Source: a virus. From it: a DNA stretch of 44,730 nucleotides. A program made the translations under genes and the position numbers. Of this stretch, positions 1-44,730 are shown piece after piece. The stretch is from the IMG/VR virus record IMGVR_UViG_3300043171_000105, one strand, 5' to 3'. The notes beneath the pieces were generated by a model. It had not been told where the DNA came from, ran no database searches, and saw only the letters and a program-made list of their open reading frames with translations. Position 1 is the first letter of the stretch. Each line of letters starts with the position of its first letter.

Positions 1-127
1 TTCATCTGCAACAGGTGTGGTTACCAGTGGGATCGTGACGACACAGCACCACCGTGTAAGGACACCACTGCGAAGGCGAGTCAGTACACCAGGGATAAAG
101 AGATGGTTAAGATTAAGGGGTTGTTGA
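1..127. repeat. Terminal duplication, copy 1 (identical to 44604-44730)
   Basis: Base-for-base identity of the first 127 nt with the last 127 nt of the window, checked by eye. Confidence 0.95.
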
Positions 128-4233: not shown

Positions 4234-4449
4234 ATGTCTGAGAATGATAACGAGGTGCTGGATGGTAACTTGCGAGTGCGAGTAAGCCAACAGGAACTCG
4301 ATATTTTTGAAGCAAAATCTGAGCGCATGGGCAAACCCAGCGCAACTTTAGTCCGTGAAATTATAGCGGCATTTAATGATGGTCGCTTGCGTATCATCCC
4401 AACCAAAGGTCAAAAAGAATCTTTAGGAGAACTGTACAATGTCAATTGA
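4234..4449 (+). CDS. Ribbon-helix-helix (CopG/Arc-like) DNA-binding protein
   Basis: 71 aa. [32 protein letters not shown] fits the beta-strand, helix, helix pattern of RHH regulators. First gene after the promoter. Confidence 0.6.
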
Positions 4450-4897
4450 AAACAACTTGAAACGTAGTGCTGATGCACTTGAATCTATCGCTGAGTCATT
4501 ATCACTATTGTTAATTGCTATGGGCGGTAATACGAGTGTCACAGTTGCTGCTCCTATTGCTGCTCCCGTTGCTGCTCCCGCTGCTGCTCCCGCTGCTGCT
4601 CCCGCTGCTGCTCCCGCTGCTGCTGCTGCTGCTCCTGCTGCTGCTGCTCCCGCTGCTGCTGCTCCTGCTGCTGCTGCTGCTGCTCCTGCTGCTGCTGCTG
4701 CTGCTCCTGCTACCATCGAACCTGCCCTTCTGTCAGACATCGATATGAACAATGAACTGGTCGCTGAGTCGAAACGAATCGGTGATACTGATGCTGTCAG
4801 AAATGCAATGAGTGAGCTTGGCCTTACGTCAGTGACTGGCTTAACTGCTGATGTTCAGAACTCATTGTTGTTAGTTGTTCGTGCGATTCAGTCATGA
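4439..4897 (+). CDS. Hypothetical protein with a central ~65-residue Ala/Pro repeat linker
   Basis: AGGAG Shine-Dalgarno before ATG 4439. ATGA-coupled to the downstream nuclease gene. This reading frame fits the operon packing, whereas the other five frames that are open across the repeat do not. Confidence 0.75.
4547..4711 (+). repeat. Imperfect triplet repeat tract: (GCT)n interrupted by CCY
   Basis: GCTGCTCCC/GCTGCTGCTCCT units are visible directly. The tract encodes (A)nP repeats. Confidence 0.95.
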
Positions 4898-6317: not shown

Positions 6318-7199
<882 letters not shown>

Positions 7200-7287: not shown

Positions 7288-7572
7288 ATGAGTGATTCAA
7301 ATTGTTCAATGGAAATGCCCATCTATGATTGTCATAAACAGGTGCACGCATTGAAGATTAAAAGCATTGAGCCTTCAGAACTCGATGACGGTGGTTCAAC
7401 TATTACACCAGAAGAAAAAGGTTATGCACCATTCTACGTTGATAATGACTATGTAGAAAAGCATGAACCGAAAGCAGGTGGATATTATGTTGTTTATAAA
7501 GGCGGTTATAAATCATTCTCACCTGCTGATGCTTTTGAAAGTGGATATACACCGCAGTTAATTCCTGCATAA
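7288..7572 (+). CDS. Hypothetical protein, possibly N4 gp49 / Sf6 gp66-like
   Basis: 94 aa. KVHALKI...GGYYVVYKGGYKSFSPADAFESGY resembles that small phage family from memory only. Confidence 0.6.
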   Translation: MSDSNCSMEMPIYDCHKQVHALKIKSIEPSELDDGGSTITPEEKGYAPFYVDNDYVEKHEPKAGGYYVVYKGGYKSFSPADAFESGYTPQLIPA

Positions 7573-7591
7573 CAATTACTCCTGCCTTTAA

Positions 7592-7616
7592 GCCCTCCTT
7601 CGGGAGGGTCTTTTTA
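7592..7616 (+). terminator. Rho-independent terminator
   Basis: CCCTCC stem, TTCG tetraloop, GGAGGG stem, then TC and a TTTTT run, 20 nt after the stop at 7572. Confidence 0.85.
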
Positions 7617-7720
7617 AAGTGACACTGGTTTAATATAAACAATTATTTTTATATACGGTTGCTTATTAGACTTATCATCATGTAGTGCATTCGTGATCAG
7701 TGTCACTTTAAAAAGAATAA

Positions 7721-7839
7721 TGCTGACGCTGGATTGCAAGCGGGGTTCGAGACCCTGGGTAGATCGAGGATGATCCGCATCACTCACGAAGTGATATAAA
7801 AGCCGGTGCATGGTGGTTCGATTCCACCAGTCAGTACCA
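7721..7839 (+). ncRNA. Non-canonical tRNA-like element (T-arm, acceptor 3' strand, ACCA)
   Basis: 7812-7828 GGTGG/TTCGATT/CCACC, then AGTCAGT, A, CCA. Candidate 5' acceptor strand GCTGACG at 7722-7728. Internal hairpins at 7741-7757, 7762-7775 and 7779-7795. I could not fold a canonical cloverleaf. Confidence 0.5.
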
Positions 7840-7863
7840 TTTAATAACAACGAGGTGACAGTG

Positions 7864-8052
7864 ATGGAGCTATACGAAATTCAAAGAGCGTTGAGTAAAG
7901 CGAGATCAGAGCTAAAAGCCGTTGAAGATAACGCGAGTATCATGGCTGATTTAATCGCTGGTAATTTAAGATCGATACCAGCTTATAAATTGAAACGATT
8001 AAAGAAAGAACTCCGTGATTTCAATATGCACACTCAGACGTGGATGAGGTGA
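7864..8052 (+). CDS. Hypothetical protein (62 aa, coiled-coil-like)
   Basis: GAGGTGA Shine-Dalgarno followed by ATG 7864. The longer track ORF from 7810 would overlap the tRNA-like element. Confidence 0.6.
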   Translation: MELYEIQRALSKARSELKAVEDNASIMADLIAGNLRSIPAYKLKRLKKELRDFNMHTQTWMR

Positions 8053-8057
8053 CAGTG

Positions 8058-8345
8058 ATGAATGACAATAACGATGACGGTATATCGCAGGTGTTAATCT
8101 CTAAAGCTGAATGGTTGCTGAAATATAAACCAGAAACAGCTGATGAAGCCTTTAATATGCTGTACGAACAATTCAATGAACAGACAGAAACAATGCTAGA
8201 GCTGACTGCATCGATGATCAGTCGTCCTCCTATGAAAAAAATTACAAAATGGTATGAATTCTGGAACCCGCAGAGTGGTTTTATCGGGGGGATAATAATG
8301 GGTGTTGTACTTTTAATTATTATGTGGTTTATATCGCACAAATGA
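8058..8345 (+). CDS. Hypothetical protein with a C-terminal transmembrane helix
   Basis: The identical GAGGTGACAGTGATG initiation region sits at 8046-8060. C-terminal hydrophobic stretch GGIIMGVVLLIIMWFI. Confidence 0.6.
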   Translation: MNDNNDDGISQVLISKAEWLLKYKPETADEAFNMLYEQFNEQTETMLELTASMISRPPMKKITKWYEFWNPQSGFIGGIIMGVVLLIIMWFISHK

Positions 8346-10384
8346 TTAACCCCGACTTCCTCTACGGTATGACAACCGGTGACATCAGGTATGACATCGA
8401 AACGTACCCCAACGCGTTCACCGTGTGGTTCTACCACCCTGGAACACAGCGTAAGTGGTACTTCGAGATCAGCTTCAGACGCAATGATATACAGTCGCTG
8501 TGTCAATTCATGGAAGTGATGGCTGAGCAGCAGTGTCGCATGGTTGGGTACAATAACATCGGGTTCGATTACCCGGTGATGCACTTCATCTATCGGAACA
8601 GGCACTCGTGCATCGGTGTCATCGACATCTACAACAAAGCGATGGCGATCATCGAGGCGCATGGTCCAGCTAAGTTCGCACACATGGTGTGGGAATCTGA
8701 CTGGATCGTACCTCAGATTGATCTGTACAAGATCCATCACTTCGATAACATGTCAAAGGCGACTAGTCTCAAGGTACTTGAGTTCAATATGAGAATGGAT
8801 AGCATCGAAGACTTACCTTTCCCCGTTGGCACCATGCTAACCAGTGAGCAGGTTGACACTCTCGATGAGTACAACTGGCACGATATTGTTGCAACTGATA
8901 TGTTCGCTGATCGCACTGAGAAGCACATCAAACTACGTGAAGGTTTATCAGAACAATTCGGTGTCAACATGATGAACATGAGTGACGTGAAGATGGGTGA
9001 AACTATCCTTGTCACCGAGATGGAGAAACGAGGTATCTCATGCTATGAATACGATGGTAGGAAGAAAATCAAGAAGCAGACGAAACGCGAATCAATCGAC
9101 CTGTCGCAAGTCATGTTCCCGTATGTTAATTTCGAGACATTACCATTCCAACAAATCAAAGCGTACCTGGAGTCAAAAGTCATCACAGAAACCAAGGGTG
9201 TGTTCAAGGGACTCATCGCATCTGTTGATGGACTCGACTACCACTTTGGCACAGGTGGATTACATGCCTCTGTTGAATCACAGGTCATCCACACTGATGA
9301 TCGATACCAACTTGTTGATGTTGATGTTGCTAGTTTTTACCCTAACCTTGGGATTAAGAACAAGCTCTACCCGGCGCATCTAGGTGAGGCATTCTGTGAC
9401 GCGTATCAAGGTGTCTATGAAACACGTATGACTTACCCGAAGAAGACCGCAGAAAATGAAGCATTCAAGCTGGCACTGAACGGTGCCTATGGCGGCAGCA
9501 ACAACGACTACAGCCCGTTCCTCGATTCGTTCTACACCATGTCGATCACCATCAATGGTCAACTGCTGCTATGTATGCTGGTCGAGCAGTTACTGAAGAC
9601 ACCTGGTCTACGCATGATCCAGGCCAATACTGACGGTGTGACTTACCTGTGCCCTCATGAGTATCTTGAACACACTCGATCAGTGTGTCGATGGTGGGAG
9701 CAACTGACAAACCTTGAGCTTGAAGAAGTGTTGTACAGTCGCATGTTCATACGTGATGTGAACAGTTATATTGCCGAGTATAGTGACGGCAAACTCAAAC
9801 GAATCGGAGCGTACGCACATGTCACAGCTGAAGAAGACCCCGGAACCAGAGAGTTGCCGTATCACAAAGATTGGTCAGCACGAGTCGTTGCACTCGCTGC
9901 TGAAGCTGCGCTCGTACGTGGTGTTGATATACGTGAGTTTGTTACTAATCATGATGACATATTCGACTTTTTTCTTCGCACAAAAGTACCACGATCCAGC
10001 ACCCTTGAATGGGGAGGTGAGCAGGTCAGCAACATTGTACGATACTACATCAGCACAGATGGCAAACCACTTGAAAAAGTGATGCCACCGAACGGTGAGC
10101 CAGGTGAGTATAAACGCGCGAACAAGTTGACTGATCAATACTTCAACGAGGTCATGACTGAGATTGGTTTCGGCGTACATGATGAACGCATCCACACTAA
10201 GAACAAATCAACCTACGGTGAGCGTCGCAGTGGTATTAATACAGGATGGGATGTGATGGTGTGTAATAATATTTCTCAGGATGAATGGGTGCAAAGTAAT
10301 TATCACCCGCGTGATTTGAATCATGAATGGTACATTCAACAAACAGAAAAATTAGTGAAACCACTGTTGCAAGGTTCAATGTGA
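8342..10384 (+). CDS. DNA polymerase with family-B-type motifs and a 3'-5' exonuclease domain
   Basis: Exo motifs YDIETYPN, NNIGFDYPV, YNWHDIVATD. Pol motifs DVDVASFYPNL (DxxSLYPS-like), KLALNGAYGG (KxxxNSxYG-like), ANTDGV (DTD-like). ATG 8342 forms an ATGA overlap with the upstream stop; GTG 8324 is an alternative start. Confidence 0.85.
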   Translation: MINPDFLYGMTTGDIRYDIETYPNAFTVWFYHPGTQRKWYFEISFRRNDIQSLCQFMEVMAEQQCRMVGYNNIGFDYPVMHFIYRNRHSCIGVIDIYNKAMAIIEAHGPAKFAHMVWESDWIVPQIDLYKIHHFDNMSKATSLKVLEFNMRMDSIEDLPFPVGTMLTSEQVDTLDEYNWHDIVATDMFADRTEKHIKLREGLSEQFGVNMMNMSDVKMGETILVTEMEKRGISCYEYDGRKKIKKQTKRESIDLSQVMFPYVNFETLPFQQIKAYLESKVITETKGVFKGLIASVDGLDYHFGTGGLHASVESQVIHTDDRYQLVDVDVASFYPNLGIKNKLYPAHLGEAFCDAYQGVYETRMTYPKKTAENEAFKLALNGAYGGSNNDYSPFLDSFYTMSITINGQLLLCMLVEQLLKTPGLRMIQANTDGVTYLCPHEYLEHTRSVCRWWEQLTNLELEEVLYSRMFIRDVNSYIAEYSDGKLKRIGAYAHVTAEEDPGTRELPYHKDWSARVVALAAEAALVRGVDIREFVTNHDDIFDFFLRTKVPRSSTLEWGGEQVSNIVRYYISTDGKPLEKVMPPNGEPGEYKRANKLTDQYFNEVMTEIGFGVHDERIHTKNKSTYGERRSGINTGWDVMVCNNISQDEWVQSNYHPRDLNHEWYIQQTEKLVKPLLQGSM

Positions 10385-17343: not shown

Positions 17344-20300
17344 CTACTCACGGCTAGGACCAAATAGTAACTCTCGGGTGGTGAACTCTTCACCATCTTC
17401 AATGACATCATATAAGTGCTCCCCGGTGGACCACATTTGATTGACTCCAGGGACACCGATACCCGCAGCAATCAGCTTGCTCACATTCTTAATCTGACCG
17501 AGGGTGATGTCTTCATCAGTCATAATGTTCTTAACCAGACCCTTGCCTGACGTGATGCCTCGCTCCATCATCGCAGCTACAGGGGTGGAATTGTAACCAA
17601 AGTCTGTGAATGCACCACTGGCAACATCCCTTACAAAAGGCACAGATGTCACAGGGTATAATGCTACCATTGTCAAAAAATTACTCATTCTCTCATCTTC
17701 ACCCTCTGGTTCATCCAGCTCACCGCGCATGAACATCTCAAGGAATACAGGTATGGTGAACAAGAACATCGCTTTAGCAGCTGCTGATGTTGGTGAATAC
17801 ACACCAGATTTAGTACCTCTTATCAGATCCCTTGTCAAATTACCCAATGAGCTGAAGAACGTCATAAACATGGTGAACGTGGTGTGTATTTTAGACTGAC
17901 TACGCATGATGCGTGCCATATCTTTAGTGGCACCAGAGCCTTGAGTATTTTCTAAAGTCACATCAGCAAAGTGAACAGCCTTAACTTCGTCACCATTCTC
18001 ACTCAGATGTTTATCATAAGCTGCGTGCCATGTGGGTAAGTCAACCATGTACACCTGAATCAATGCAATGTGCTTCATTGACACTTCTTGCACAGCTGCC
18101 AGTGGACCTGTCTTCTTACTTAATCTATTCATTGCATTTCGGATTTCACGATCCATTGTTTTAACACGATGCGGCAGAACCTTAGAACGCTCGTTTGCAA
18201 AATCCCAACCTGACTGCATATTTTCACGACTGCCGAGCAACTTGCGTATTGTTCTCATGTACCACGCATTACCAACAACAGCTTGTACACCCTTAACAGT
18301 CGGACCCACACCCAACTCAGCAGCAGTTGTGAATATGCCGAACAGCTGCATGATACCTGTTGTTGCTTTGAACCCCATTACACCGAGTGTGGTGCCAAAA
18401 CGTAACCGACCGAATGCTTCATCGATGTATGTCTTCACCGGTTGCTGTCTTCCATCCTTAGCAATGTCGTTCAACCAAGGTTTCAATTCTTTAAACTCAG
18501 CCTCACCCATGACAGCAGTGATCGCACTTGCGACATCAGGTGACTGTATAAGCCTGTTTACCTGGCGCACAGCATCATGGTGAGTGATGTAATGGATAGT
18601 CTCGTTGAAATGATCAGGTACAACCTCCATGCTGAGGTAGATTCGATCATAGAAACCAGTACGTTCATTAGTTGCACCGGTGTTCACCGATGACTGGATG
18701 CTGGCTGTGTTGTTGAACATCGATTCAGTCTCAGCTTCACGCTTCTCAGCGTTCTTCTCAGCCTTGTGACTGCGTTTCGGTGAGTATTTGACCGGATAGT
18801 AACCACCTTTGAATGTACCATGTTCAGTCACAACAGGGGTCGCTACAACCTTTGGTGGCACCAACCCAGTAGTACGACGGTGAACCTCAGCGAGTTGTGG
18901 GTATAGAGTATCCATTTGATCCCAAATCAACTGCACCAGCTCCCAGTCACTCTTCGTCATGTGTGCCAGCACAGCCTGTAACTTAGGATTGTCAATTGTG
19001 ATCTCAGCTTCATTCTCAGGGTCAGCCCAACCTTCACCGAGTAGTAACTTTTTCAAGTTACCCTGGTTACCAGTATTCAATGCAACTGCGAGAACCTGAT
19101 GACCTTGTAAAGTATCATCGATCTCAGGGATAAAGACCTTCGTGTTATGGCGTGCTGCATCTTCTTTGCTTCGATTATTGATAGCTTTGATTACTGGTGT
19201 AGCTACGTCATCAACCAGATTCATCTTAGCATCGAGCGCATCGGTAAACGGCTGAGTCAATATATCATGACTCATACCAACACGATCACCACCGTCGAGC
19301 CATGATGCAAGGAATGGGATCTTGGTGAGCTGTGATGCCCACCGTTGAATATGTTCAGACAGTGTTGCTTTGCGTGCGTCATCGATACGACTGCGACTTT
19401 CTTTAGTCTCGAAGCGTGCATCCTGTTCACTGATATGATCAATCCAGTTAGCCTTCAGCTTCTGGAACTCAATCTCTTCACCGGCTACTTTCAATTTATT
19501 CGCGTACCGGGCAACATGCTCGATGTTCTTCACTGAATCATTGACACCCTGTAAATCTGAGAATGGTATATTTTTCCAATGGGTCACATAGGATTCATTC
19601 AGCACAGCATTTGACAGCACCAGACCATCACCGTCGTTTTCCATGCGATCCTTCATCCACGTGTTGATGCTTTCAACTTCCTTTAGTGTAGCTACTTTTC
19701 TGAACTCAAAGCGACCGAGGATCTTAGTGATCTGATCCATGTAGCCGTTCTCAGCTTTCATTATTTCTTCACGTACTTTCTTCTTGTTGTACCGCGCCAT
19801 GCGATCAACAATTTTAGTGGTCTCGTTCTTTGCACTGGTTGCAGCCATGCCGAGGTAATAATTCATCACCTGACGCATCTTGGCCTCAGCCGCACCTTCT
19901 TTGTTACCCTCAGCCAACATGCGTGCAGATTCCTGCGCTGCTCTGATCTCAGCTTTACGGTACTTGCCTGGGTGGTTCTCACGGAACGATAAGCGACCGA
20001 TACGTTCTTCAGCCATTGCTTTAATTGTCGCACGATCAACAGTCGGTGCAGTTGTACCTTTAGCCAACATCTTCAATTCGTGCAGTATCAACTTACCACG
20101 TTCTTCATTCTGCACCGCTTCATCAGCTTCACGTTCAATGGTGCCATCGGTGAGGATATCACCGTGACGTTCAACCATACGAGCTTCAGCATTGACTTCA
20201 GCTTGAGCTTTGATAGTTGGAGCAGTGATCAGATCGATCAACATCTCTGAGCCTGATCCATAACCGAAGAAAGCAGCAGCTTCATCAGGGTGTACACCCC

Positions 20301-23300
20301 GCATACCTTTGGCTGTCATACCACGCAGTTCAGGGGGGACGATGACGGACTTGACATCACGCTTATCAATTTTCTCTTCACCCACCATCGCTTTGACAGC
20401 GGCATGGTCGATCTTGAATTCACCGTCGCGCAACTCAGTACGAGCTTTATAAATTTGCTCTTTACTCAGCGAGTCGAGTTCTTCATCGATGATGTCCTGC
20501 TTCTCTTCTTTCCACCACTTCTGAGTTTGGCGTGTCAGTTGTTTGATGATCTTATTGCGCAGAGTTTCAGACTGTACGTCTTTCACTTTCTCCTGACGCT
20601 TCTGATAATCAGCGAACTCATCTTCAGTCATACCTGCCATCGCAGCATTAGTGAACATCGGTTCAACTCGTGCGCGTGACTCAGCAGCCTGGATCTGTTC
20701 TTCAGTAGCAATCAGTCGGTCGAACACCTGACGCATCTCATCGTCAAGGTTCACGTCAAGCTGTTTACGCAGAGACTGGTAGATTCGTACAAGCCAGCGT
20801 GCGAATGCTCTGAACGCGTTACGCAACTCGATAGACGGTGCTTTACCTTCCATCAGATAAGTCTCGAAGCCACGTGCGAACTGCTCATGAACAGCACGAC
20901 GGATTGCTGCATCTTTGTCCTTGTTATCAGTGGTATTGTTGTCAAGGAATGTGATTACATCATCGGCGGTGATTTCAACTTTCTTCTTGTCAGTACGCTC
21001 ACCTTGTTTCAATACGTCAAACTCACCATCAACATAAGTCGTCGCCTCCTTCGCCACATCCTCAGCGTTACGCTTGTACCAGTTATTGATCGATTGGAGC
21101 ATCTCGGTATCACCGTTGACCTCCATCTCGTACATGAAGTGGGCGAACTCGTGCAGGAACGTACTCAGATCAGCAGCTTCAGTCAGACGGATGACACTGT
21201 TTGATGGGTCATAGTAGCCGCGTGCGACTTGTTCACCGTCGGTGCGTTGACGGAAGATGCTGGGGTCAGTGGGGTCGAATGTACCAATGTTTTCAACTGA
21301 TTTAATATTGGTCTTACCGCTGTCGAAAATATGAACGTGAGCAGTACCTGATTCAATGTTCATTGTTTCAAATCGAGTTTCTGCATTTCTCAGAATGATA
21401 GAATCAAAACCCATTTCTTCAATGACTTCAGCAATCAGCTGTGATTGAATTAACTCTCCAGTTTCAGGGTCATCTGCATACTGGTAGTCTTCACTTTCAC
21501 GTAGAAGATTTTCGATGGTCTCAGGCGTAGCTTCACCACCAAGCTCAAATACCTGACCAGAAAGGTTAGCAGCATCAACATCGTGACGATTTGAAATAGT
21601 TTGAATCGCTTCAATTAATTCATTAGGAGTTTCAGCTTCAATATCCCATCGAGCTTCATCAATATCAACTTGATAGCTATCAATGTTTTCATTAACTTCT
21701 TCAATAGTGACATCGTTGTTATCAGCAACCTGTTCAATAGCATTATTCTGAATTTCTTCATTGTCAACAAACTCAATCCATTCAGCGTTCTCCCCGATGA
21801 CAAACGGGTTGTCAACACGCACGAACAGTTCCATTGTTTGCTCTTCGCCACCTGACAGTTCTTGACGCACTACGTTTCTAGCAAATTCCATTGTATCTTC
21901 ATCATAGAATTCTTCACCGAAACGATCTTTAGCTGCATCGATACCTTCTTCATCAATGACATCCTGAATATCATCAACAACCTGTTCAGCACGTTGTTCA
22001 ATACGGTTTGTTAAATCTGGACCTTCACCTGCGTAATTATCAGAAGCATCACTCTCAGAACTAGTGAAGTAATTGATAGCACCAAACTGACCTTCAAGAT
22101 TTCCGCGTAACGCATCGAACACATCGAAATCATGAGTCGTACCGTGAAATACTTTGACTACCACTGGTGTATCAGCTTTGAACACGTGATCATTAATATC
22201 TTCAGGTTCTATTACTTCACCATCGCCAGACCATTTTTTGAACTCTTCTGTTTCAGTCGATACAATTTCAACAGGTGCCTGAGCAAACACCAAATCTTCT
22301 TCCAACTTAGTAACAGTCGCACCTTCAAACGCGATGATCCAGTTCAACCCTTCAACCAGTACACCGTCATGACCTAACTCCATCAGAGCTTCACGACGCT
22401 GCATAACCTCTTCAGCAGTGAGATCACCCAGCACATCAGCGAACACCTCAGCGTCAATGACAAGCGGGTTCTCAAGGGTGATTTCATGCACACTTAACTC
22501 GTTGCCGTAACGCTCAGCATTGCCGACATCATCGAATGAGAGATAGTGACCCAGGTTACCGGCTGGTGTTGTGGTGTTCTGACCTAGAAGACTGTCATCA
22601 AACTGAGTAAAGTCTTTAGGGGATCGGTGGGTGACTGTTACTGTTTCGCCTGCTTTTGCCCGGTTGAACTCGGATAGAGCTGCTGCGTCATCTCTGATTT
22701 TCGTTTCTGTGATAAGGTCTTGCCGGGCTTGCTGCTGGTCAACTTCTTCACGTCGTCTTGTAATTTGCTCATCTGTTATTACTCCGGGTTGTGCGAACGG
22801 TCTACGCCCTGCAAATTCAGCATTAACCATTCGACCGATTGATTGTTTTAATCCTGGCGATACTTCAAAATTTTCAATTTCTTCTGATAATGCGACACTG
22901 ATGGCTTGACTTGGAAAATCAAAACCTAACCAATTATCACGATCAAGCGCGTTAATGAACTTACGATAATCTGGACCAAATTCATCAGCAGCTTCTAATA
23001 CTTCATTAACTTCAGCATCTTCAGGTAACACATCGAGAAATTTGTCACGAGCAGATTCAAATATCTCAGGTGCATCTTTGTACGCAGGCTGCTCCAACAC
23101 CATCTCACCTTCAAGTCGCGCACGCTCACCGGTGAGTGGACCTTCAATAGTCAAACCTGAATCTTGATAAACCTGCTGCACAGTCTTACCTTGGCGGCGT
23201 GCCTGAGCTGTTGCCCACGCTGGGACGATCTGCGCCATTGTTGATGCATTAGCCGCGTTCACTTGACCTGAGTCGATCAGCTGATCACGAACCTGATCAT

Positions 23301-25011
23301 AGATCTCTTGAGCTTCAACGTACTCGCTGGTGTTCTCCTGAGCTTCCTCCATCAAACCCTTGATGTAATTGTCAGTCTCATGCTGCACCTGCTCCTGGCG
23401 GAACGGTGAAGTGGTCTGATCACTCATTGTCATGCTGTCACGCAACTCGGTGAAGTGGTCAGTACCTGCAATGTCAGCAGCAAAATCAGCAACAGGCACC
23501 TGGACATCAACACCCAGCGCAGCAGCTTCACGCGCCTGTTCTGACAGCAGCTTCAACGCAGGGTCAGCTTCAATCTCTTCAATGGTCTTGCTCTGAAGGT
23601 ACAATGATGTCTGAACACCATCAATGAACACGTGAGTATTATTCTCACCGTCAGCTTCACCGACGAATTGTCTAAATGATTCTTTGTCGCGTTCACGGAG
23701 TTTTGAGTCACTGACATTCTCATTAAGAGTGTCGATCTTCAACTGCTCATTCTCAGACAACTTATCACGCTGCCGTGTTTCTGCGATGACACTGGCGGTT
23801 GTACCAACACCCGCGAATATCAATGATGCTTGAGCACCTTTCTTACCAGCTTCAAGTACACGTTCACCAGTTTCTTCACTGAATATAGTATCCAGTGCAG
23901 ATGATAAATCCTGTTCAGTGAATGACTCTTCATCGATGTACTTAGCCAGTTCACCACCGATGACATTCGTGAATTCCTGTGCACTCTCGGTGACAGCTTC
24001 AGTAGCCACTGCGATGCCGTAGTCTTTCATCAAGCGAGTGATCATCGCGCGACCAGTCTCAGTACCCAGTGCTCTCTTCACTTTACTCTTAATCACAGCA
24101 CGCATACCAGGTGTAACGGTACGACCCAACGCAGCTAATGATATGAACTCTAACCCTGCGTTAATTCCACCGACTAGCGTAGCTGCACCACCTGCAACCC
24201 GTGGTGATACATAATTACCTTGTTCATCTTGTAATACAATAAACTCATTGAATGCCAGACCAGCTTCTAAGTCGAAAGCAGCTTTAGCAACACCAACGCG
24301 ACCTGATATTTTCGCAGCAGGTACACCGAGCGCAATTGCACCAGGTACAGCACCAACGCCGCCGAATAACACACCCCCAGCAGCACCAGTAGCACCGGCG
24401 ACAACACCACCTGCTGCTGCATAACCCAAACCGGTACGCAGTATCTCAAACATAATCGGCAACTGTTCTGCTGCTGCAACTGGCGCACCAACGAAGAATC
24501 CATATTCATCTGCGCCTTGTTTGGTTAGATCTTCAATTTCTTTTAATCGTGCGATCTGCTCATCAGTGACAACCTCATTTGCACCGAGCGACTGATACAT
24601 CCTACTTAGGCCGATCTCTGACGACTCGACCATGAGTTGCCCTTTCTCGAATGACTCTGCTATATCAACCCCGTATTCACTTACAGTTTTTAACCCATCT
24701 TCAATTAGCTGCATGACACCAATATCATCCTGGGCAACAACAGCATTGTCGAAGTTACTGAGGTATTTAGATGTAGCGGGGCTGTTGGTTGTTATGTCAT
24801 TGAAATCAATACTGTCAAGGTTGAATTTGTGTTCAACGCTCTCATCGACTGCGAACGGGGGTACATCAGTGTCAATCGACAACTGCTGAGTTTTAGCATG
24901 TTCATCAGGATTGATCTTCAGTGCTTCACTAAAATTCGATTCTAACAGGTTATTCTCATCAACCTGTTGTTCAACTTCACCGAACTGAACCTTACTCAAA
25001 TCAAAGGTCAT
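17344..25011 (-). CDS. Giant internal virion / ejection protein (T7 gp16 position) of polyvalent type
   Basis: 2555-aa uninterrupted ORF between the gp15-like and fibre genes. HEFAH zincin motif, two HxS/T...Y...E modules, Gly-rich and C-terminal hydrophobic segments. Confidence 0.9.
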   Translation of the reverse strand: MTFDLSKVQFGEVEQQVDENNLLESNFSEALKINPDEHAKTQQLSIDTDVPPFAVDESVEHKFNLDSIDFNDITTNSPATSKYLSNFDNAVVAQDDIGVMQLIEDGLKTVSEYGVDIAESFEKGQLMVESSEIGLSRMYQSLGANEVVTDEQIARLKEIEDLTKQGADEYGFFVGAPVAAAEQLPIMFEILRTGLGYAAAGGVVAGATGAAGGVLFGGVGAVPGAIALGVPAAKISGRVGVAKAAFDLEAGLAFNEFIVLQDEQGNYVSPRVAGGAATLVGGINAGLEFISLAALGRTVTPGMRAVIKSKVKRALGTETGRAMITRLMKDYGIAVATEAVTESAQEFTNVIGGELAKYIDEESFTEQDLSSALDTIFSEETGERVLEAGKKGAQASLIFAGVGTTASVIAETRQRDKLSENEQLKIDTLNENVSDSKLRERDKESFRQFVGEADGENNTHVFIDGVQTSLYLQSKTIEEIEADPALKLLSEQAREAAALGVDVQVPVADFAADIAGTDHFTELRDSMTMSDQTTSPFRQEQVQHETDNYIKGLMEEAQENTSEYVEAQEIYDQVRDQLIDSGQVNAANASTMAQIVPAWATAQARRQGKTVQQVYQDSGLTIEGPLTGERARLEGEMVLEQPAYKDAPEIFESARDKFLDVLPEDAEVNEVLEAADEFGPDYRKFINALDRDNWLGFDFPSQAISVALSEEIENFEVSPGLKQSIGRMVNAEFAGRRPFAQPGVITDEQITRRREEVDQQQARQDLITETKIRDDAAALSEFNRAKAGETVTVTHRSPKDFTQFDDSLLGQNTTTPAGNLGHYLSFDDVGNAERYGNELSVHEITLENPLVIDAEVFADVLGDLTAEEVMQRREALMELGHDGVLVEGLNWIIAFEGATVTKLEEDLVFAQAPVEIVSTETEEFKKWSGDGEVIEPEDINDHVFKADTPVVVKVFHGTTHDFDVFDALRGNLEGQFGAINYFTSSESDASDNYAGEGPDLTNRIEQRAEQVVDDIQDVIDEEGIDAAKDRFGEEFYDEDTMEFARNVVRQELSGGEEQTMELFVRVDNPFVIGENAEWIEFVDNEEIQNNAIEQVADNNDVTIEEVNENIDSYQVDIDEARWDIEAETPNELIEAIQTISNRHDVDAANLSGQVFELGGEATPETIENLLRESEDYQYADDPETGELIQSQLIAEVIEEMGFDSIILRNAETRFETMNIESGTAHVHIFDSGKTNIKSVENIGTFDPTDPSIFRQRTDGEQVARGYYDPSNSVIRLTEAADLSTFLHEFAHFMYEMEVNGDTEMLQSINNWYKRNAEDVAKEATTYVDGEFDVLKQGERTDKKKVEITADDVITFLDNNTTDNKDKDAAIRRAVHEQFARGFETYLMEGKAPSIELRNAFRAFARWLVRIYQSLRKQLDVNLDDEMRQVFDRLIATEEQIQAAESRARVEPMFTNAAMAGMTEDEFADYQKRQEKVKDVQSETLRNKIIKQLTRQTQKWWKEEKQDIIDEELDSLSKEQIYKARTELRDGEFKIDHAAVKAMVGEEKIDKRDVKSVIVPPELRGMTAKGMRGVHPDEAAAFFGYGSGSEMLIDLITAPTIKAQAEVNAEARMVERHGDILTDGTIEREADEAVQNEERGKLILHELKMLAKGTTAPTVDRATIKAMAEERIGRLSFRENHPGKYRKAEIRAAQESARMLAEGNKEGAAEAKMRQVMNYYLGMAATSAKNETTKIVDRMARYNKKKVREEIMKAENGYMDQITKILGRFEFRKVATLKEVESINTWMKDRMENDGDGLVLSNAVLNESYVTHWKNIPFSDLQGVNDSVKNIEHVARYANKLKVAGEEIEFQKLKANWIDHISEQDARFETKESRSRIDDARKATLSEHIQRWASQLTKIPFLASWLDGGDRVGMSHDILTQPFTDALDAKMNLVDDVATPVIKAINNRSKEDAARHNTKVFIPEIDDTLQGHQVLAVALNTGNQGNLKKLLLGEGWADPENEAEITIDNPKLQAVLAHMTKSDWELVQLIWDQMDTLYPQLAEVHRRTTGLVPPKVVATPVVTEHGTFKGGYYPVKYSPKRSHKAEKNAEKREAETESMFNNTASIQSSVNTGATNERTGFYDRIYLSMEVVPDHFNETIHYITHHDAVRQVNRLIQSPDVASAITAVMGEAEFKELKPWLNDIAKDGRQQPVKTYIDEAFGRLRFGTTLGVMGFKATTGIMQLFGIFTTAAELGVGPTVKGVQAVVGNAWYMRTIRKLLGSRENMQSGWDFANERSKVLPHRVKTMDREIRNAMNRLSKKTGPLAAVQEVSMKHIALIQVYMVDLPTWHAAYDKHLSENGDEVKAVHFADVTLENTQGSGATKDMARIMRSQSKIHTTFTMFMTFFSSLGNLTRDLIRGTKSGVYSPTSAAAKAMFLFTIPVFLEMFMRGELDEPEGEDERMSNFLTMVALYPVTSVPFVRDVASGAFTDFGYNSTPVAAMMERGITSGKGLVKNIMTDEDITLGQIKNVSKLIAAGIGVPGVNQMWSTGEHLYDVIEDGEEFTTRELLFGPSRE

Positions 25012-34125: not shown

Positions 34126-34878
34126 TTAGGCATCCGTTTTCGGATACATTCTAGACACACGGTCAGACTCTTCAGAAGATTGAGCACCAGTTACACCCGG
34201 TACATCTTCATTCAATGTTTGACCAACTCGAACCATAAACCGGATAACTTCAGGGTGGTTGCCCACACCGTGTTCTTCCAGCAGCTGTTTCAATTCTGGA
34301 GTTCCATATTTAGAAATAGCAGATTGCGCGATCTTGACACTTTCTTCAAACTTGTCTCCACCGAACTCACCGTCATTTTTAGAACTGGTCTTCCAGTCAC
34401 TCATCAGCTGGTTGAAGTTTTCGACTTGCGTCTGCGAACCCGCCTGGACTTGTTTTGCGTAAAGGTCAATAACCTTCTGAGCCTGTTCCTGATTCAAACC
34501 CAACTCTTTGAAAAGAGGGGATGCTTCAGCGAGAGCAGTTTCATTAAGTTCAGTGCCTTCAGGCATAACAAAGTCGGCATAAGTGTCGGGAGGCGTATCA
34601 CTACCTTCTGCACCAGCAATATCAGCAGCAGCATCAACAATAGCTTTTGCAGCTGCTTTATCATCAGCAGATAACCCTGGGTCATCTGCATCAAGAATAG
34701 CTTGTGCAACTGCAACATCAGCAGCCGCACCTTCAGCAGCAGCACCTTCGCCGCCGCCTTCAGCACTGCCACCTTCGGCAGCAGCACCTGTTAATACGGT
34801 TTCAGTACCACCTTCGGCAGCACCTTCTGTTTGAACACCTTCTGTACTTGATTCGTCACTCATTGAGATCATCTCCAA
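34126..34878 (-). CDS. Scaffolding protein
   Basis: Acidic and Ala/Glu/Gly-rich, lying between portal and capsid. The true start is probably ATG 34863, which has a GGAG Shine-Dalgarno. Confidence 0.7.
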   Translation of the reverse strand: MEMISMSDESSTEGVQTEGAAEGGTETVLTGAAAEGGSAEGGGEGAAAEGAAADVAVAQAILDADDPGLSADDKAAAKAIVDAAADIAGAEGSDTPPDTYADFVMPEGTELNETALAEASPLFKELGLNQEQAQKVIDLYAKQVQAGSQTQVENFNQLMSDWKTSSKNDGEFGGDKFEESVKIAQSAISKYGTPELKQLLEEHGVGNHPEVIRFMVRVGQTLNEDVPGVTGAQSSEESDRVSRMYPKTDA

Positions 34879-35125
34879 TCATTTTTAAATAATCACCTGG
34901 TGCAGCTTCTTTGATTTGTCGTTCAAGATCCAAAGCCGCATCCCTCTTACCTGAACAATACGCAGATCGAACAGGATTTTCATTAAACATGCTGTCAAAT
35001 ATACCACAGTTTTGCAGGTACTCCAAAATAAACCTTCTACCTTCAAATGTTCGCATAAAGTTTTGAATAACAAGAAGATTCGGGTTGCTGTCATTACTAT
35101 TCGATTTCTGCTCATCATCACTCAT
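34856..35125 (-). CDS. Small conserved protein downstream of the portal gene
   Basis: 89 aa. ATGA overlap with the portal stop. Confidence 0.6.
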   Translation of the reverse strand: MSDDEQKSNSNDSNPNLLVIQNFMRTFEGRRFILEYLQNCGIFDSMFNENPVRSAYCSGKRDAALDLERQIKEAAPGDYLKMIGDDLNE

Positions 35126-44566: not shown

Positions 44567-44730
44567 AGATAACTGCCAAGCCTACCAGACCTCCACTGGT
44601 GACTTCATCTGCAACAGGTGTGGTTACCAGTGGGATCGTGACGACACAGCACCACCGTGTAAGGACACCACTGCGAAGGCGAGTCAGTACACCAGGGATA
44701 AAGAGATGGTTAAGATTAAGGGGTTGTTGA
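44547..44730 (+). CDS. N-terminal part of the junction-spanning Zn-ribbon ORF (continues at 1-132)
   Basis: GTG 44547 is in frame with nt 1-132 across the duplicated end. 62 codons in total on the circular unit. Confidence 0.6.
   Translation, partial: MKNTHSEDNCQAYQTSTGDFICNRCGYQWDRDDTAPPCKDTTAKASQYTRDKEMVKIKGLL
44604..44730. repeat. Terminal duplication, copy 2 (identical to 1-127)
   Basis: Direct comparison of the sequence. Confidence 0.95.

What the first reader, a model, noticed from the sequence alone, without database searches (positions are those of the whole stretch)
7721..7839. Non-canonical ~118-nt tRNA-like RNA ending in ACCA, with a tmRNA-like 5' end
7812-7839 is a textbook tRNA 3' half: T stem GGTGG, loop TTCGATT, CCACC, a 7-nt acceptor strand AGTCAGT, discriminator A and an encoded CCA. 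The only upstream partner for the acceptor strand is GCTGACG at 7722-7728 (one G-U, five Watson-Crick pairs, one mismatch), which gives about 118 nt, too long for a tRNA. In between lie a second T-arm-like hairpin (7741-7757, CGGGG/TTCGAGA/CCCTG), a GATC/GATC hairpin (7762-7775) and an anticodon-arm-like 5-bp/7-nt hairpin (7779-7795, loop TCACGAA, lacking U33). The 5' segment GCTGACGCTGGATTGCAAGCGGGG resembles the 5' end of bacterial tmRNA (E. coli GGGGCUGAUUCUGGAUUCGACGGG), that is, the acceptor plus the D-loop analogue. The element follows a strong terminator, so it is probably its own transcription unit. Possible identities are a tRNA with large insertions, a tmRNA-TLD-like or Y-RNA (YrlA)-like tRNA mimic, a decayed tandem tRNA pair, or a decoy for tRNA-targeting defence nucleases.
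Basis: partly seen in the sequence, partly recalled or inferred. Interest (0 to 1): 0.7.

Follow-up and report, generated by a model that had tools for sequence, protein, structure and literature searches.

The report
Two-T-arm tRNA mimic in phage
The 118-base element is neither a working tRNA nor a tmRNA; it looks like a divergent copy of an unannotated family of phage RNAs built from tRNA parts without an anticodon arm, also found in well-known E. coli phages, and its function is unknown.

Summary
ARAGORN calls an 86-nt tRNA-Arg(ACG) at 7754-7839, but the call is marginal: 5 of 7 acceptor pairs, C33, and a 16-nt unstructured variable loop. Rfam gives no tRNA, tmRNA or YrlA match.

A related phage contig (L006) has an orthologous element in the same slot, between a terminator and the small ORF plus DNA polymerase. 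Pattern scans then uncovered a family of about 105-120-nt RNAs in N4-like phages (G7C, Klebsiella Kaypoctavirus), in T4-like phages (VR25, CkP1, between tRNA genes) and in uncultured phages. None is annotated and none matches an Rfam family.

The shared plan is:
- a 6-bp acceptor-like stem, often followed by NCC(A)
- a UGG loop
- T arm 1
- two hairpins
- a 16-nt linker
- T arm 2

Covariation is strong: 94.5% of cells are paired and 20 of 26 pairs show changes on both sides. The window copy has all five helices but lacks the family's conserved loop and linker motifs. It scores only 31.5 bits, no better than tandem tRNAs, so membership rests mainly on orthology with L006.

Most likely it is a non-decoding tRNA mimic matured by tRNA-processing enzymes. 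Its function is inferred, not shown.

The parts
7592..7615 (+). Intrinsic-terminator-like hairpin GCCCTCC-TTCG-GGAGGGT plus T run. It is orthologous to the hairpin that directly precedes the L006 element.
   Evidence: terminator scan; window 7589-7629 aligns with L006 1472-1512, 33/41 identical, 0/300 shuffles reach the score.
7609..7716 (+). Perfect inverted repeat: arms 7609-7629 and 7696-7716 (21 bp, one G.U) around a 66-nt AT-rich spacer. The left arm is the ortholog of the outer 5' strand of the long closing stem in L006. Read as the hollowed-out first copy of a tandem duplication of the element. It may carry a promoter (GTGACA-16-AATTAT, 7619-7646).
   Evidence: spurious mir-465 hairpin match; the repeat occurs only here in the window; MFE fold; 7697-7733 resembles 7831-7868 at 4/300 shuffles; 7615-7631 resembles 7718-7735 at 6/300.
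7722..7727 (+). S5, the 5' strand of the 6-bp acceptor-like closing stem (GCTGAC). G7728 lies opposite A7829 and is unpaired, as at the same position in the family.
   Evidence: R1 alignment marks no broken pairs in this stem; all 6 pairs of this helix show both-side changes across 16 sequences.
7728..7740 (+). D1, a D-loop analogue without a convincing stem. It contains the family-conserved UGG (7730-7732).
   Evidence: UGG is conserved in the unpaired columns; a D1 stem is not supported by covariation.
7741..7757 (+). T1, the first T-arm hairpin CGGGG/TTCGAGA/CCCTG.
   Evidence: local T-arm match; helix 2 is 100% paired, 2 of 4 pairs with both-side changes.
7759..7778 (+). Hairpin at the family's 'AS' position: GTAGATC / GATCCGC, 7 bp with one A x C, loop GAGGAT.
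   Evidence: R1 alignment places it on helix 3; helix 3: 6 of 6 pairs with both-side changes.
7779..7795 (+). Hairpin at the family's 'D2' position: ATCAC/TCACGAA/GTGAT. This is the 'anticodon arm' (ACG) of the ARAGORN tRNA-Arg call. It lacks the family's UUGGU loop.
   Evidence: (ARAGORN drawing). Not conserved in the ortholog L006.
7796..7811 (+). 16-nt single-stranded linker ATAAAAGCCGGTGCAT. Its length matches the family linker AAUAAGACUUAAUACU, but the AAGACUUA motif is not kept.
7812..7828 (+). T2, the second T arm GGTGG/TTCGATT/CCACC.
   Evidence: helix 5 is 98.8% paired, 3 of 5 pairs with both-side changes.
7830..7839 (+). S3, the 3' strand of the closing stem (GTCAGT, 7830-7835), then discriminator-like A7836 and an encoded CCA (7837-7839).
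   Evidence: N-CC follows the stem in 12 of 16 aligned members; 7821-7866 is orthologous to L006 1587-1635.
7852..8052 (+). Ribosome-binding site GAGGTGA and orphan ORF (7864-8052, 62 aa) directly downstream, with no terminator in between. A 95-aa orphan ORF (8058-8345) and the DNA polymerase gene (8324-10384) follow.

Best explanation
Window 7722-7839 (+) encodes a roughly 118-nt RNA made of tRNA parts that cannot decode. It has a 6-bp acceptor-like stem ending in ACCA, a UGG-containing D-loop analogue, two T arms, two further hairpins and a 16-nt linker. It has no true anticodon arm.

It is the ortholog of an element at the same position in a related uncultured phage (L006). Through that element it is a divergent member of a previously unannotated family of phage RNAs found in G7C-like and Klebsiella N4-like phages, in VR25/CkP1-type T4-like phages (there between tRNA genes) and in several uncultured phages.

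Inferred mechanism. The RNA is transcribed with the ORF62-ORF95-DNA polymerase message, possibly from a promoter inside the upstream inverted repeat. The acceptor/T2 stack then makes it a substrate for the tRNA maturation machinery: RNase P at G7722, and 3' trimming or CCA repair at the encoded ACCA. The stable product presents one or two tRNA-like 'elbows' plus an acceptor end to a factor that recognises tRNA shape rather than an anticodon. In other words, it acts as a tRNA mimic (decoy or adaptor).

Shown: the structure, the family, the covariation and the orthology. Inferred: the processing. Guess: the binding partner and the benefit to the phage.
For: - Orthology. L006 carries a two-T-arm element in the same slot. 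Both flanks, including the element's ends, align significantly (0/300 shuffles for each).
- Compensatory differences between window and L006. Closing stem GCUGAC/GUCAGU versus GCUGGU/GCCAGC; T2 GGUGG/CCACC versus ACCGG/CCGGU.
- The family. Pattern scans found members in IMG/VR contigs. BLAST found them, unannotated, in 45 GenBank phage records. In VR25 the element sits between tRNA-Met and tRNA-Arg; in G7C it sits in a gene-free stretch.
- Structure. RNAalifold on a sequence-only alignment without the window predicts the closing stem, T1, D2 and T2, with 15 of 19 pairs showing compensatory changes. On the 16-sequence model alignment, 94.5% of cells pair and 20 of 26 pairs change on both sides. 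No shuffle of 500 reaches this, and slid controls pair at only 42-53%.
- Model match. A covariance model built without the window matches 7719-7840 end to end (31.5 bits, E about 1e-7) and places the window's hairpins on all five helices.
- A discrete conserved unit. The element is an island of conservation: VR25 versus CkP1 is 90% identical in the element and 34-38% in the flanks; G7C versus VLCpiP4a is 66% versus 38-40%.
- tRNA-like ends. N-CC follows the stem in 12 of 16 members, and most start with G.
- Not a known family. No Rfam family covers it in the window or in members.
Against: - The window copy scores only 31.5 bits with the family model. Members score 65-130, and ordinary tandem tRNAs in phage tRNA clusters score 20-38. 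The model hit is therefore not specific evidence.
- The window lacks the family's conserved unpaired motifs: GUAGAU before T1, UUGGU in the D2 loop and AAGACUUA in the linker.
- 6/6 closing-stem pairing in a similar geometry arises in 11% of unrelated two-T-arm loci.
- Only two of 13 related phages carry the element, so it is dispensable.
- The window locus looks rearranged, with a duplicated stem and an inverted repeat, which fits decay as well as function.
- There are no expression, processing or binding data for any member. The alignment used for the best covariation numbers was fitted to the model's structure.
- The single-sequence fold is not exceptional (z = -1.49).
Confidence: 0.55

Rival explanations
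1. It is a decaying, functionless relic in this particular phage: a rearranged copy of the family element (or of tandem tRNAs) that is still tRNA-like enough to trigger ARAGORN but is no longer under selection.
For: - The conserved family motifs are lost.
- The model score is at the level of tandem tRNAs.
- The locus shows duplication and rearrangement with an inverted repeat.
- The element is absent from 11 of 13 relatives.
- It sits in a hypervariable accessory slot beside orphan ORFs.
Against: - All five helices are intact, with correct spacing and a linker of the right length.
- Both T loops are perfect.
- ACCA is retained.
- The differences from L006 in the stems are compensatory rather than disruptive, which is not what free decay produces at this divergence (DNA polymerase 60% amino-acid identity).
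Confidence: 0.25
2. It is a genuine, unusual tRNA-Arg(ACG) of 86 nt (7754-7839), as ARAGORN calls it, supplying or replacing host tRNA-Arg.
For: - ARAGORN calls it with score 102.1, inside the range of real phage tRNAs (102-123).
- ARAGORN made no calls in 6.7 Mb of shuffles.
- The loop UCACGAA resembles the tRNA-Arg(ACG) anticodon loop as I recall it, which is not a tested comparison.
- It has an encoded CCA and a perfect T arm.
- Rfam also misses some real class II phage tRNAs.
Against: - Acceptor stem is 5 of 7 pairs with a 1:72 mismatch, the D stem is 3 bp, and there is a 16-nt unpaired variable loop.
- C33 replaces the near-universal U33.
- The best tRNA-clan score is 13.6 bits against a 29-bit gathering threshold.
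- A better acceptor partner lies 31 nt upstream.
- The 'anticodon arm' is absent from the orthologous element and aligns with a non-anticodon hairpin of the family.
Confidence: 0.05
3. It works in cis as a tRNA-like 'punctuation' or stability element. RNase P and 3' processing at the structure separate the upstream message from the ORF62-ORF95-DNA polymerase message, or set that message's 5' end. The released RNA itself has no role.
For: - In both the window and L006 it lies inside an operon-like run, directly after a terminator-like hairpin and 13-25 nt before the next ribosome-binding site and start codon, with no terminator of its own.
- tRNA-like processing signals of this kind are established elsewhere: mascRNA/MALAT1 and mitochondrial tRNA punctuation (general knowledge).
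Against: - In T4-like phages and L044 the same family sits between tRNA genes. In G7C it sits in a 1.9-kb gene-free stretch, where no mRNA needs to be cut.
- A simple T arm plus acceptor would be enough for processing. The extra conserved helices and motifs point to a function of the RNA itself.
Confidence: 0.1
4. It is a tmRNA-like (SmpB/alanine) or YrlA-like (Ro60-binding) RNA, or an attP copy of the 3' end of a host tRNA.
For: - The acceptor strand followed by an unpaired UGG loop resembles the tmRNA 5' end.
- The inner order T arm, hairpin, D-like hairpin matches the T-AS-D order of YrlA (PMC4201824).
- A tRNA 3' half with CCA is what attP cores look like.
Against: - tmRNA: ARAGORN's tmRNA mode finds nothing. 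Rfam tmRNA models match only the T arm at 9.2 bits. The 3:70 pair is U-A. 118 nt leaves no room for a tag frame or pseudoknots.
- YrlA: no RF02553 hit over the element in the window or in members. No GNCGAA motif seen by eye. No TROVE protein among the 30 ORFs scanned.
- attP: the 20-mer spanning T loop and acceptor occurs in no tRNA of 185,579 species representatives, only two chance hits. No integrase was found. Relatives are lytic isolates.
Confidence: 0.04

Closest known systems
Bacteriophage T4 stable RNAs of the tRNA region (rnaC 'species 1', 139 nt, and rnaD 'species 2', 119 nt)
   Same: - Phage-encoded RNAs of about 120-140 nt with unknown function that lie among tRNA genes and are annotated as small stable RNAs.
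- rnaC ends in a T arm (CCGGG/TTCGAAT/CCCGG) followed by an acceptor-like strand.
- In VR25 the new family sits in the homologous tRNA region, next to an rnaD-like sequence.
   Different: - No sequence or model similarity. The family model gives 16 bits over rnaC.
- rnaC has one T arm and rnaD has none.
- The two-T-arm, five-helix plan is not present.
YrlA / bacterial Y RNA-like RNAs (Rfam RF02553; Chen et al. 2014, PMC4201824)
   Same: - A non-decoding tRNA mimic.
- It contains a circularly permuted tRNA top half in the order T arm, acceptor-like stem-loop, D arm, which is also the order of T1, AS and D2 in the family.
- Some are phage-encoded, and M. smegmatis YrlA is cut by RNase P and receives CCA.
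   Different: - YrlA is closed by a Ro60-binding stem with a GNCGAA motif and is encoded next to rsr. Here the closing stem is acceptor-like with NCC(A).
- Here there is a second T arm and an extra D-loop analogue, and no rsr gene was found.
- RF02553 does not match.
tRNA-like domain of tmRNA
   Same: An acceptor stem ending in ACCA stacked on a T arm. The 5' acceptor strand is followed by an unpaired D-loop analogue containing UGG instead of a D arm. There is no anticodon arm.
   Different: No G3:U70, no tag reading frame and no pseudoknots, and the size is 118 nt rather than about 360. Neither ARAGORN nor the Rfam tmRNA models detect it.
Canonical phage tRNA genes, including class II tRNAs with long variable arms
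   Same: - T arm, acceptor stem, encoded CCA, a GG-containing D-like loop and a location among tRNA genes in several phages.
- ARAGORN reads members as tRNA-Arg (window) or tRNA-Ser(cga) (L037), taking T1 or another hairpin as the anticodon arm.
   Different: - There is no anticodon arm. The hairpin at that position is a T arm whose loop has a pyrimidine at position 37 in most members.
- Length is 105-120 nt.
- The Rfam tRNA model fails.

Membership tests
tRNA (Rfam RF00005 / cloverleaf) | Covariance-model score at or above the gathering threshold (29 bits) | tested here: not met
   No hit at gathering. The best tRNA-clan hit is tRNA-Sec at 13.6 bits, E = 6.6. Real phage tRNAs scored 31-66 bits in the same test.
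tRNA (Rfam RF00005 / cloverleaf) | A 7-bp acceptor stem contiguous with the D arm, total length about 73-93 nt | tested here: not met
   The ARAGORN model (86 nt) has 5 of 7 pairs with a 1:72 mismatch. The good partner GCTGAC gives 118 nt, with a T-arm hairpin between the acceptor and the rest.
tRNA (Rfam RF00005 / cloverleaf) | A conserved anticodon arm with U33 and a purine at 37 | tested here: not met
   The loop UCACGAA has C33. The hairpin is absent in the ortholog L006 and aligns with the family's D2 hairpin.
tRNA (Rfam RF00005 / cloverleaf) | T arm with a GTTCRANNC loop, and an NCCA 3' end | tested here: met
   GGTGG/TTCGATT/CCACC, then 7 nt, then ACCA.
tmRNA | Detection by ARAGORN's tmRNA mode or by the Rfam tmRNA models | tested here: not met
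   Searches find none. One search gives only a 17-nt T-arm match to beta_tmRNA at 9.2 bits.
tmRNA | G3:U70 alanine identity pair, tag reading frame and pseudoknots | tested here: not met
   The 3:70 pair is U7724-A7833. 118 nt with five hairpins leaves no room for a tag frame.
YrlA / Y RNA-like (RF02553) | Covariance-model match | tested here: not met
   No RF02553 hit over the element in the window or over members. The weak hits fall on other positions (tandem tRNAs).
YrlA / Y RNA-like (RF02553) | Ro60-binding closing stem with GNCGAAN0-1G, and a gene next to rsr (TROVE) | tested here: not met
   The motif is not seen in or beside the 5' strand (by eye). No TROVE domain in the 30 window ORFs scanned with PHROGs or Pfam. 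The host genome could not be examined.
YrlA / Y RNA-like (RF02553) | Internal order T arm, acceptor-like stem-loop, D arm | tested here: met
   T1, AS hairpin and D2-position hairpin occur in that order in the window and the family (PMC4201824).
Two-T-arm phage RNA family defined here (G7C / VR25 / L006 type) | Five helices in order: 6-bp closing stem, T1, AS, D2, T2, with 1 unpaired nt between T2 and the closing stem | tested here: met
   The R1 alignment covers model positions 1-119 and all five helices are formed in the window.
Two-T-arm phage RNA family defined here (G7C / VR25 / L006 type) | Conserved unpaired motifs: D1 UGG, GUAGAU, D2 loop UUGGU, linker AAGACUUA | tested here: not met
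   Only UGG (7730-7732) and the 16-nt linker length are kept. The other three motifs are absent.
Two-T-arm phage RNA family defined here (G7C / VR25 / L006 type) | Model score clearly above that of tandem tRNAs | tested here: not met
   Window 31.5 bits, members 65-130 bits, tandem tRNAs and tRNA-rich loci 20-38 bits.
Two-T-arm phage RNA family defined here (G7C / VR25 / L006 type) | Orthology (same genomic slot, alignable ends) with an undoubted member | tested here: met
   L006 (65 bits, with the TAAGACU linker) lies between the same terminator-like hairpin and the RBS/small ORF/DNA polymerase. Both junctions align at 0/300 shuffles.
attP core (phage copy of a host tRNA 3' end) | Identity with the 3' end of a bacterial tRNA gene, and an integrase in the phage | tested here: not met
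   The 20-mer GGTTCGATTCCACCAGTCAG has only two non-tRNA chance hits in 185,579 species genomes. No integrase among the ORFs scanned.

The most novel reading that the evidence does not exclude
The two-T-arm RNAs are a new class of phage tRNA mimic. [quoted passage not shown] They then act in trans, either as a decoy or inhibitor for host tRNA-targeting immunity or another tRNA-binding factor, or as an aminoacylatable carrier charged by a synthetase that ignores the anticodon (Ala, Ser or Leu type). The window element would be a Vibrio-phage variant with different specificity loops.
Probability: 0.2. Interest if true: 0.85.

Novelty: new variant of a known kind. Interest (0 to 1): 0.62.

Why it matters
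If the family is real and functional, model coliphages that anyone can grow carry a conserved, unannotated tRNA-shaped RNA with no anticodon. These include G7C-like N4 relatives and VR5/VR25-type T4 relatives.

That makes an old question directly testable with deletions, pull-downs and defence-system panels: what are the non-tRNA 'stable RNAs' in phage tRNA clusters for? The question has stood since the T4 species 1 and 2 RNAs were described. It also bears on the current arms race around tRNA-targeting immunity.

On the practical side, ARAGORN reads members as tRNA-Arg or tRNA-Ser(cga). These are probably annotation errors that distort counts of phage tRNAs. The family model and its motifs could be turned into an Rfam entry.

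Tried and rejected
- Exact or near-exact copies. Three sub-patterns in viral contigs and one in metagenomes gave nothing. BLAST of the locus against 50,697 phage records gave nothing significant. The only contig encoding the neighbouring proteins is the same phage, 100% identical.
- Neighbour-gene route. The two downstream ORFs have no homolog in phage records or in the 5.8-billion-protein set. Homologs of the upstream 94-aa ORF occur in unrelated phages with no tRNA-like neighbour.
- Host-tRNA origin or attP. Rejected.
- Metagenome scan with the two-T-arm pattern. Most of the 72 loci were a tRNA plus an att-type partial duplicate, or repeat arrays. Only L090 and L128 look related.
- Splicing out 7729-7759 to make a 'clean' tRNA raises the ARAGORN score only from 102.1 to 108.3, so an insertion-bearing tRNA is not convincing.
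- A D1 stem is not supported by covariation and was dropped from the model.
- T4 rnaC and rnaD are not homologs.
- E. coli genomes hold no copy of the G7C-type element. The L006 type is not in the phage record collection searched.
- Literature searches found no description of this family in the open-access library. They cannot exclude one in subscription journals or among the 10,006 unnamed candidates of PMC10690425.
Full report
**Context**

The window is a complete or nearly complete podovirus-like phage genome of about 44.6 kb, with a 127-nt terminal overlap. Its DNA polymerase is 72-73% identical to that of Vibrio phages 1.021.A, 1.185.O, MZH0603 and PS25B.1.

The finding lies in the replication module, in this order:
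- DUF2800 exonuclease
- Enc34-type ssDNA-binding protein (6318-7199)
- a 94-aa accessory ORF (7288-7572)
- a terminator-like hairpin (7592-7609)
- a perfect 21-bp inverted repeat (7609-7629 / 7696-7716)
- the element (7722-7839)
- two orphan ORFs (7864-8052 and 8058-8345)
- the DNA polymerase gene (8324-10384)

In relatives, the slot between the ssDNA-binding protein gene and the polymerase gene is hypervariable.

**Checking the observation**

ARAGORN reports one gene in the whole window, tRNA-Arg(ACG) at 7754-7839.

The ARAGORN model is poor:
- acceptor 5 of 7 pairs with a 1:72 mismatch
- a 3-bp D stem
- C33
- a 16-nt unpaired variable loop

Its score of 102.1 is at the bottom of the range I measured for real tRNAs of a Felix-O1-like phage (102-123). 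ARAGORN made no call in 6.7 Mb of dinucleotide shuffles, so the tRNA-likeness is not chance.

Rfam 15 gives nothing at gathering thresholds. At E up to 10 it gives only local T-arm matches and a 13.6-bit tRNA-Sec alignment. There is no tmRNA call.

The single-sequence fold of the 118-mer uses the GCUGAC/GUCAGU stem but is not exceptional (z = -1.49). The acceptor pairing alone is within chance expectation.

No terminator follows the element. A ribosome-binding site begins 13 nt after the CCA.

**Finding relatives**

Exact-pattern scans, BLAST of the locus and searches with the neighbouring orphan proteins all failed. The only other contig carrying the neighbours is the same phage.

The 20-mer spanning the T loop and acceptor occurs in no tRNA of 185,579 bacterial and archaeal species, and no integrase was found. 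That rules out an attP copy of a host tRNA.

The breakthrough was a weak nhmmer hit in L006, an IMG/VR phage whose polymerase is 60% identical. L006 carries GCTGGTA-TTTGGTAACGACGTG-AGGGTTCGACTCCCT-...-ACCGGTTCGATTCCGGT-C-GCCAGC-ACCA in the same place: after a terminator-like hairpin and before a ribosome-binding site, a small ORF and the polymerase gene.

Both junctions align significantly with the window:
- window 7589-7629 with L006 1472-1512, 33 of 41 identical, 0/300 shuffles
- window 7821-7866 with L006 1587-1635, 0/300 shuffles

Only these two of 13 related phages have paired T-arm hairpins there. Between the two, the closing stem and T2 differ by compensatory changes. The hairpin that ARAGORN took for an anticodon arm has no counterpart in L006.

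**A family**

Patterns built from the shared pieces retrieved further elements with the same plan from IMG/VR.

BLAST with one of them found 45 GenBank phage records, with no RNA feature annotated over the element in any of the records listed:
- G7C-like N4-like coliphages and Shigella phages (Gamaleyavirus)
- Klebsiella Kaypoctavirus
- T4-like phages (Gaprivervirus VR5/VR25, Karamvirus CkP1, Edwardsiella PEi20/26)

In VR25 the element fills the gap between tRNA-Met and tRNA-Arg(TCT) in the region homologous to the T4 tRNA cluster. In L044 it lies between tRNA-Thr and tRNA-Trp. In G7C it lies in a 1.9-kb gene-free stretch upstream of the virion RNA polymerase gene.

It is absent from 5,426 E. 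coli genomes. It is an island of conservation in otherwise unalignable flanks: 90% versus 34-38% identity for VR25 against CkP1. No Rfam family, YrlA included, covers any member.

**Structure**

The family plan, 5' to 3':
- A closing stem of 6 bp, extended to 17-19 bp in L006, L044 and L048, so that in L006 the 'ACCA' is itself base-paired.
- An unpaired D-loop analogue with yUGGU and usually GUAGAU.
- T arm 1 (4-5 bp, loop UUCGAnn).
- A 4-7-bp hairpin ('AS').
- UAG.
- A D-like hairpin with loop UUGGU ('D2').
- A 14-17-nt linker containing AAGACUUArUACU.
- T arm 2.
- One unpaired nucleotide.
- The 3' strand of the closing stem, followed by N-CC in 12 of 16 sequences.

RNAalifold on a sequence-only MAFFT alignment of 15 members, without the window, independently predicts the closing stem, T1, D2 and T2. 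In that prediction 15 of 19 pairs carry compensatory changes.

On the 16-sequence alignment to the covariance model:
- 94.5% of cells pair
- 20 of 26 pairs change on both sides
- no shuffle of 500 reaches these values
- sliding the partners by 1-3 columns drops pairing to 42-53%
- all six pairs of the closing stem covary

A D1 stem is not supported.

The connectivity reads as two tRNA 'top halves' without anticodon arms. The outer one is closing stem, D1 and T2. The inner, circularly permuted one is T1, AS and D2, which is the T-AS-D order described for YrlA (PMC4201824).

**Is the window element a member?**

A model built without the window matches 7719-7840 over its full length (31.5 bits, E about 1e-7 in the window). 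It places the window's hairpins on all five helices:
- GTAGATC/GATCCGC on AS
- ATCAC/GTGAT (the supposed anticodon arm) on D2
- the 16-nt ATAAAAGCCGGTGCAT on the linker

The same model gives 20-38 bits to ordinary tandem tRNAs, while members score 65-130. The window also lacks GUAGAU, UUGGU and AAGACUUA.

Membership therefore rests on three things: orthology with L006, the complete helix plan, and the compensatory stem differences. It does not rest on the model score. I call it a probable, divergent member.

The window locus also looks rearranged:
- The left arm of the inverted repeat is the ortholog of L006's outer 5' strand.
- 7697-7733 resembles 7831-7868.
- 7615-7631 resembles 7718-7735.

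This fits a tandem duplication whose first copy lost its core and survives as the perfect hairpin.

**How it probably works**

The structure and its conservation are shown. The rest is inference, based on:
- a 6+1+5 acceptor/T2 stack
- a G at the first position in most members
- N-CC(A) after the stem
- placement between tRNA genes in two unrelated phage groups

These suggest maturation by RNase P, 3' trimming and the CCA-adding enzyme, as shown experimentally for the acceptor-like stem of M. smegmatis YrlA (PMC4201824).

Without an anticodon arm the RNA cannot decode. Its conserved loops and linker suggest that it binds something that recognises tRNA shape. A decoy for tRNA-targeting defence, an adaptor, or charging by an anticodon-blind synthetase are all open. 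I could test none of them.

In the window and L006 the element could also serve in cis to process the polymerase operon transcript.

**Comparison with known RNAs, and novelty**

- It fails the defining tests for tRNA, tmRNA, YrlA and attP (see the membership table).
- The closest functional analogues are the T4 species 1 and 2 RNAs, which are stable RNAs of unknown function in the tRNA cluster. rnaC has a T arm and an acceptor-like end but is not homologous.
- YrlA is the other close analogue.
- I found no description of the two-T-arm family in Rfam 15 or in the searchable literature. That search is incomplete.

I rate it a new variant of a known kind (phage or bacterial tRNA mimics). The window copy is a divergent and possibly decaying example.

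Noticed in passing
window 1-127 and 44604-44730: An exact 127-nt direct repeat at the two ends of the window. It is either a circular-assembly overlap or a terminal repeat, which implies a complete genome of about 44.6 kb.
   Followed up: no
window 7609-7629 / 7696-7716: A perfect 21-bp inverted repeat (one G.U) around a 66-nt AT-rich spacer, unique in the window and overlapping the terminator's T run. It produces a spurious mir-465 Rfam match. Each arm contains a -35-like GTGACA. I read it as the remnant of a duplicated closing stem of the element.
   Followed up: partly
window 4482-4783 and 6757-7109: Long GCT-triplet (TGCTGCTGCT...) tracts inside ORF 4439-4897 and in the 3' part of the ssDNA-binding protein gene. 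They imply low-complexity protein tails.
   Followed up: no
window 7852-7866 and 8046-8060: The identical 15-mer GAGGTGACAGTGATG (RBS plus start codon) precedes both orphan ORFs (62 aa and 95 aa). Neither ORF has a homolog in the phage records or in the 5.8-billion-protein collection.
   Followed up: partly
window 8535-8616: A weak hit of the family model (12.5 bits, E 0.1) inside the DNA polymerase gene, centred on a T-arm-like hairpin CGGGTTCGATTACCCG. Probably chance.
   Followed up: no
window 17344-25011 (- strand): A single 2555-aa ORF in the virion module, next to genes similar to T7 gp14-like internal virion protein and tail proteins. I did not characterise it.
   Followed up: no
L058 9192-9252; L059 (- strand, about 9507-9583); L037 (- strand) 637-805: Phage contigs carry roughly 50-nt 'mini-tRNAs': an acceptor stem, a TTTGGTAA loop and a T arm, with no anticodon arm. 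They occur singly (L058, L059) or as two to three units in tandem between tRNA-Phe and tRNA-Tyr (L037, partly called tRNA-Ser(cga) by ARAGORN). They may be the building block of the two-T-arm family.
   Followed up: partly
L023, L026-L028, L030-L032, L035, L040, L041, L045, L046, L051, L053-L055, L057 (e.g. L028 5908-6060): About 20 IMG/VR contigs share a tRNA with a 6-nt anticodon loop (ARAGORN 'tRNA-???', anticodon 'tc'). It is followed at once by another odd element with two T-arm-like hairpins (GCCGTTCAAGTCGGC ... GGTTCGATTCC).
   Followed up: no
L134, L135, L138, L139, L144 (e.g. L134 6600-6690): A conserved hairpin RNA candidate, AAATCTTAGGAGTAATTAACCTAAGACTGACAGGTTCGAAACTGTCGATTGA, lies directly after a tRNA gene in five phage contigs. 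It is unrelated in plan to the two-T-arm family.
   Followed up: no
L147 (G7C NC_015933) 34296-36222: A gene-free stretch of about 1.9 kb between gp47.2 and the virion RNA polymerase gene holds the family member. The family model also hits weakly about 250 nt upstream of the member in related phages (L140 5561-5737, L152 36-212). There may be further structured RNAs here.
   Followed up: no
L002 (Vibrio phage 1.185.O) 6496-6713: The GenBank record annotates four 'CRISPR spacers' as ncRNA inside a CDS just downstream of the DNA polymerase gene. This is most likely a repeat-finder artefact in a repetitive coding region.
   Followed up: no
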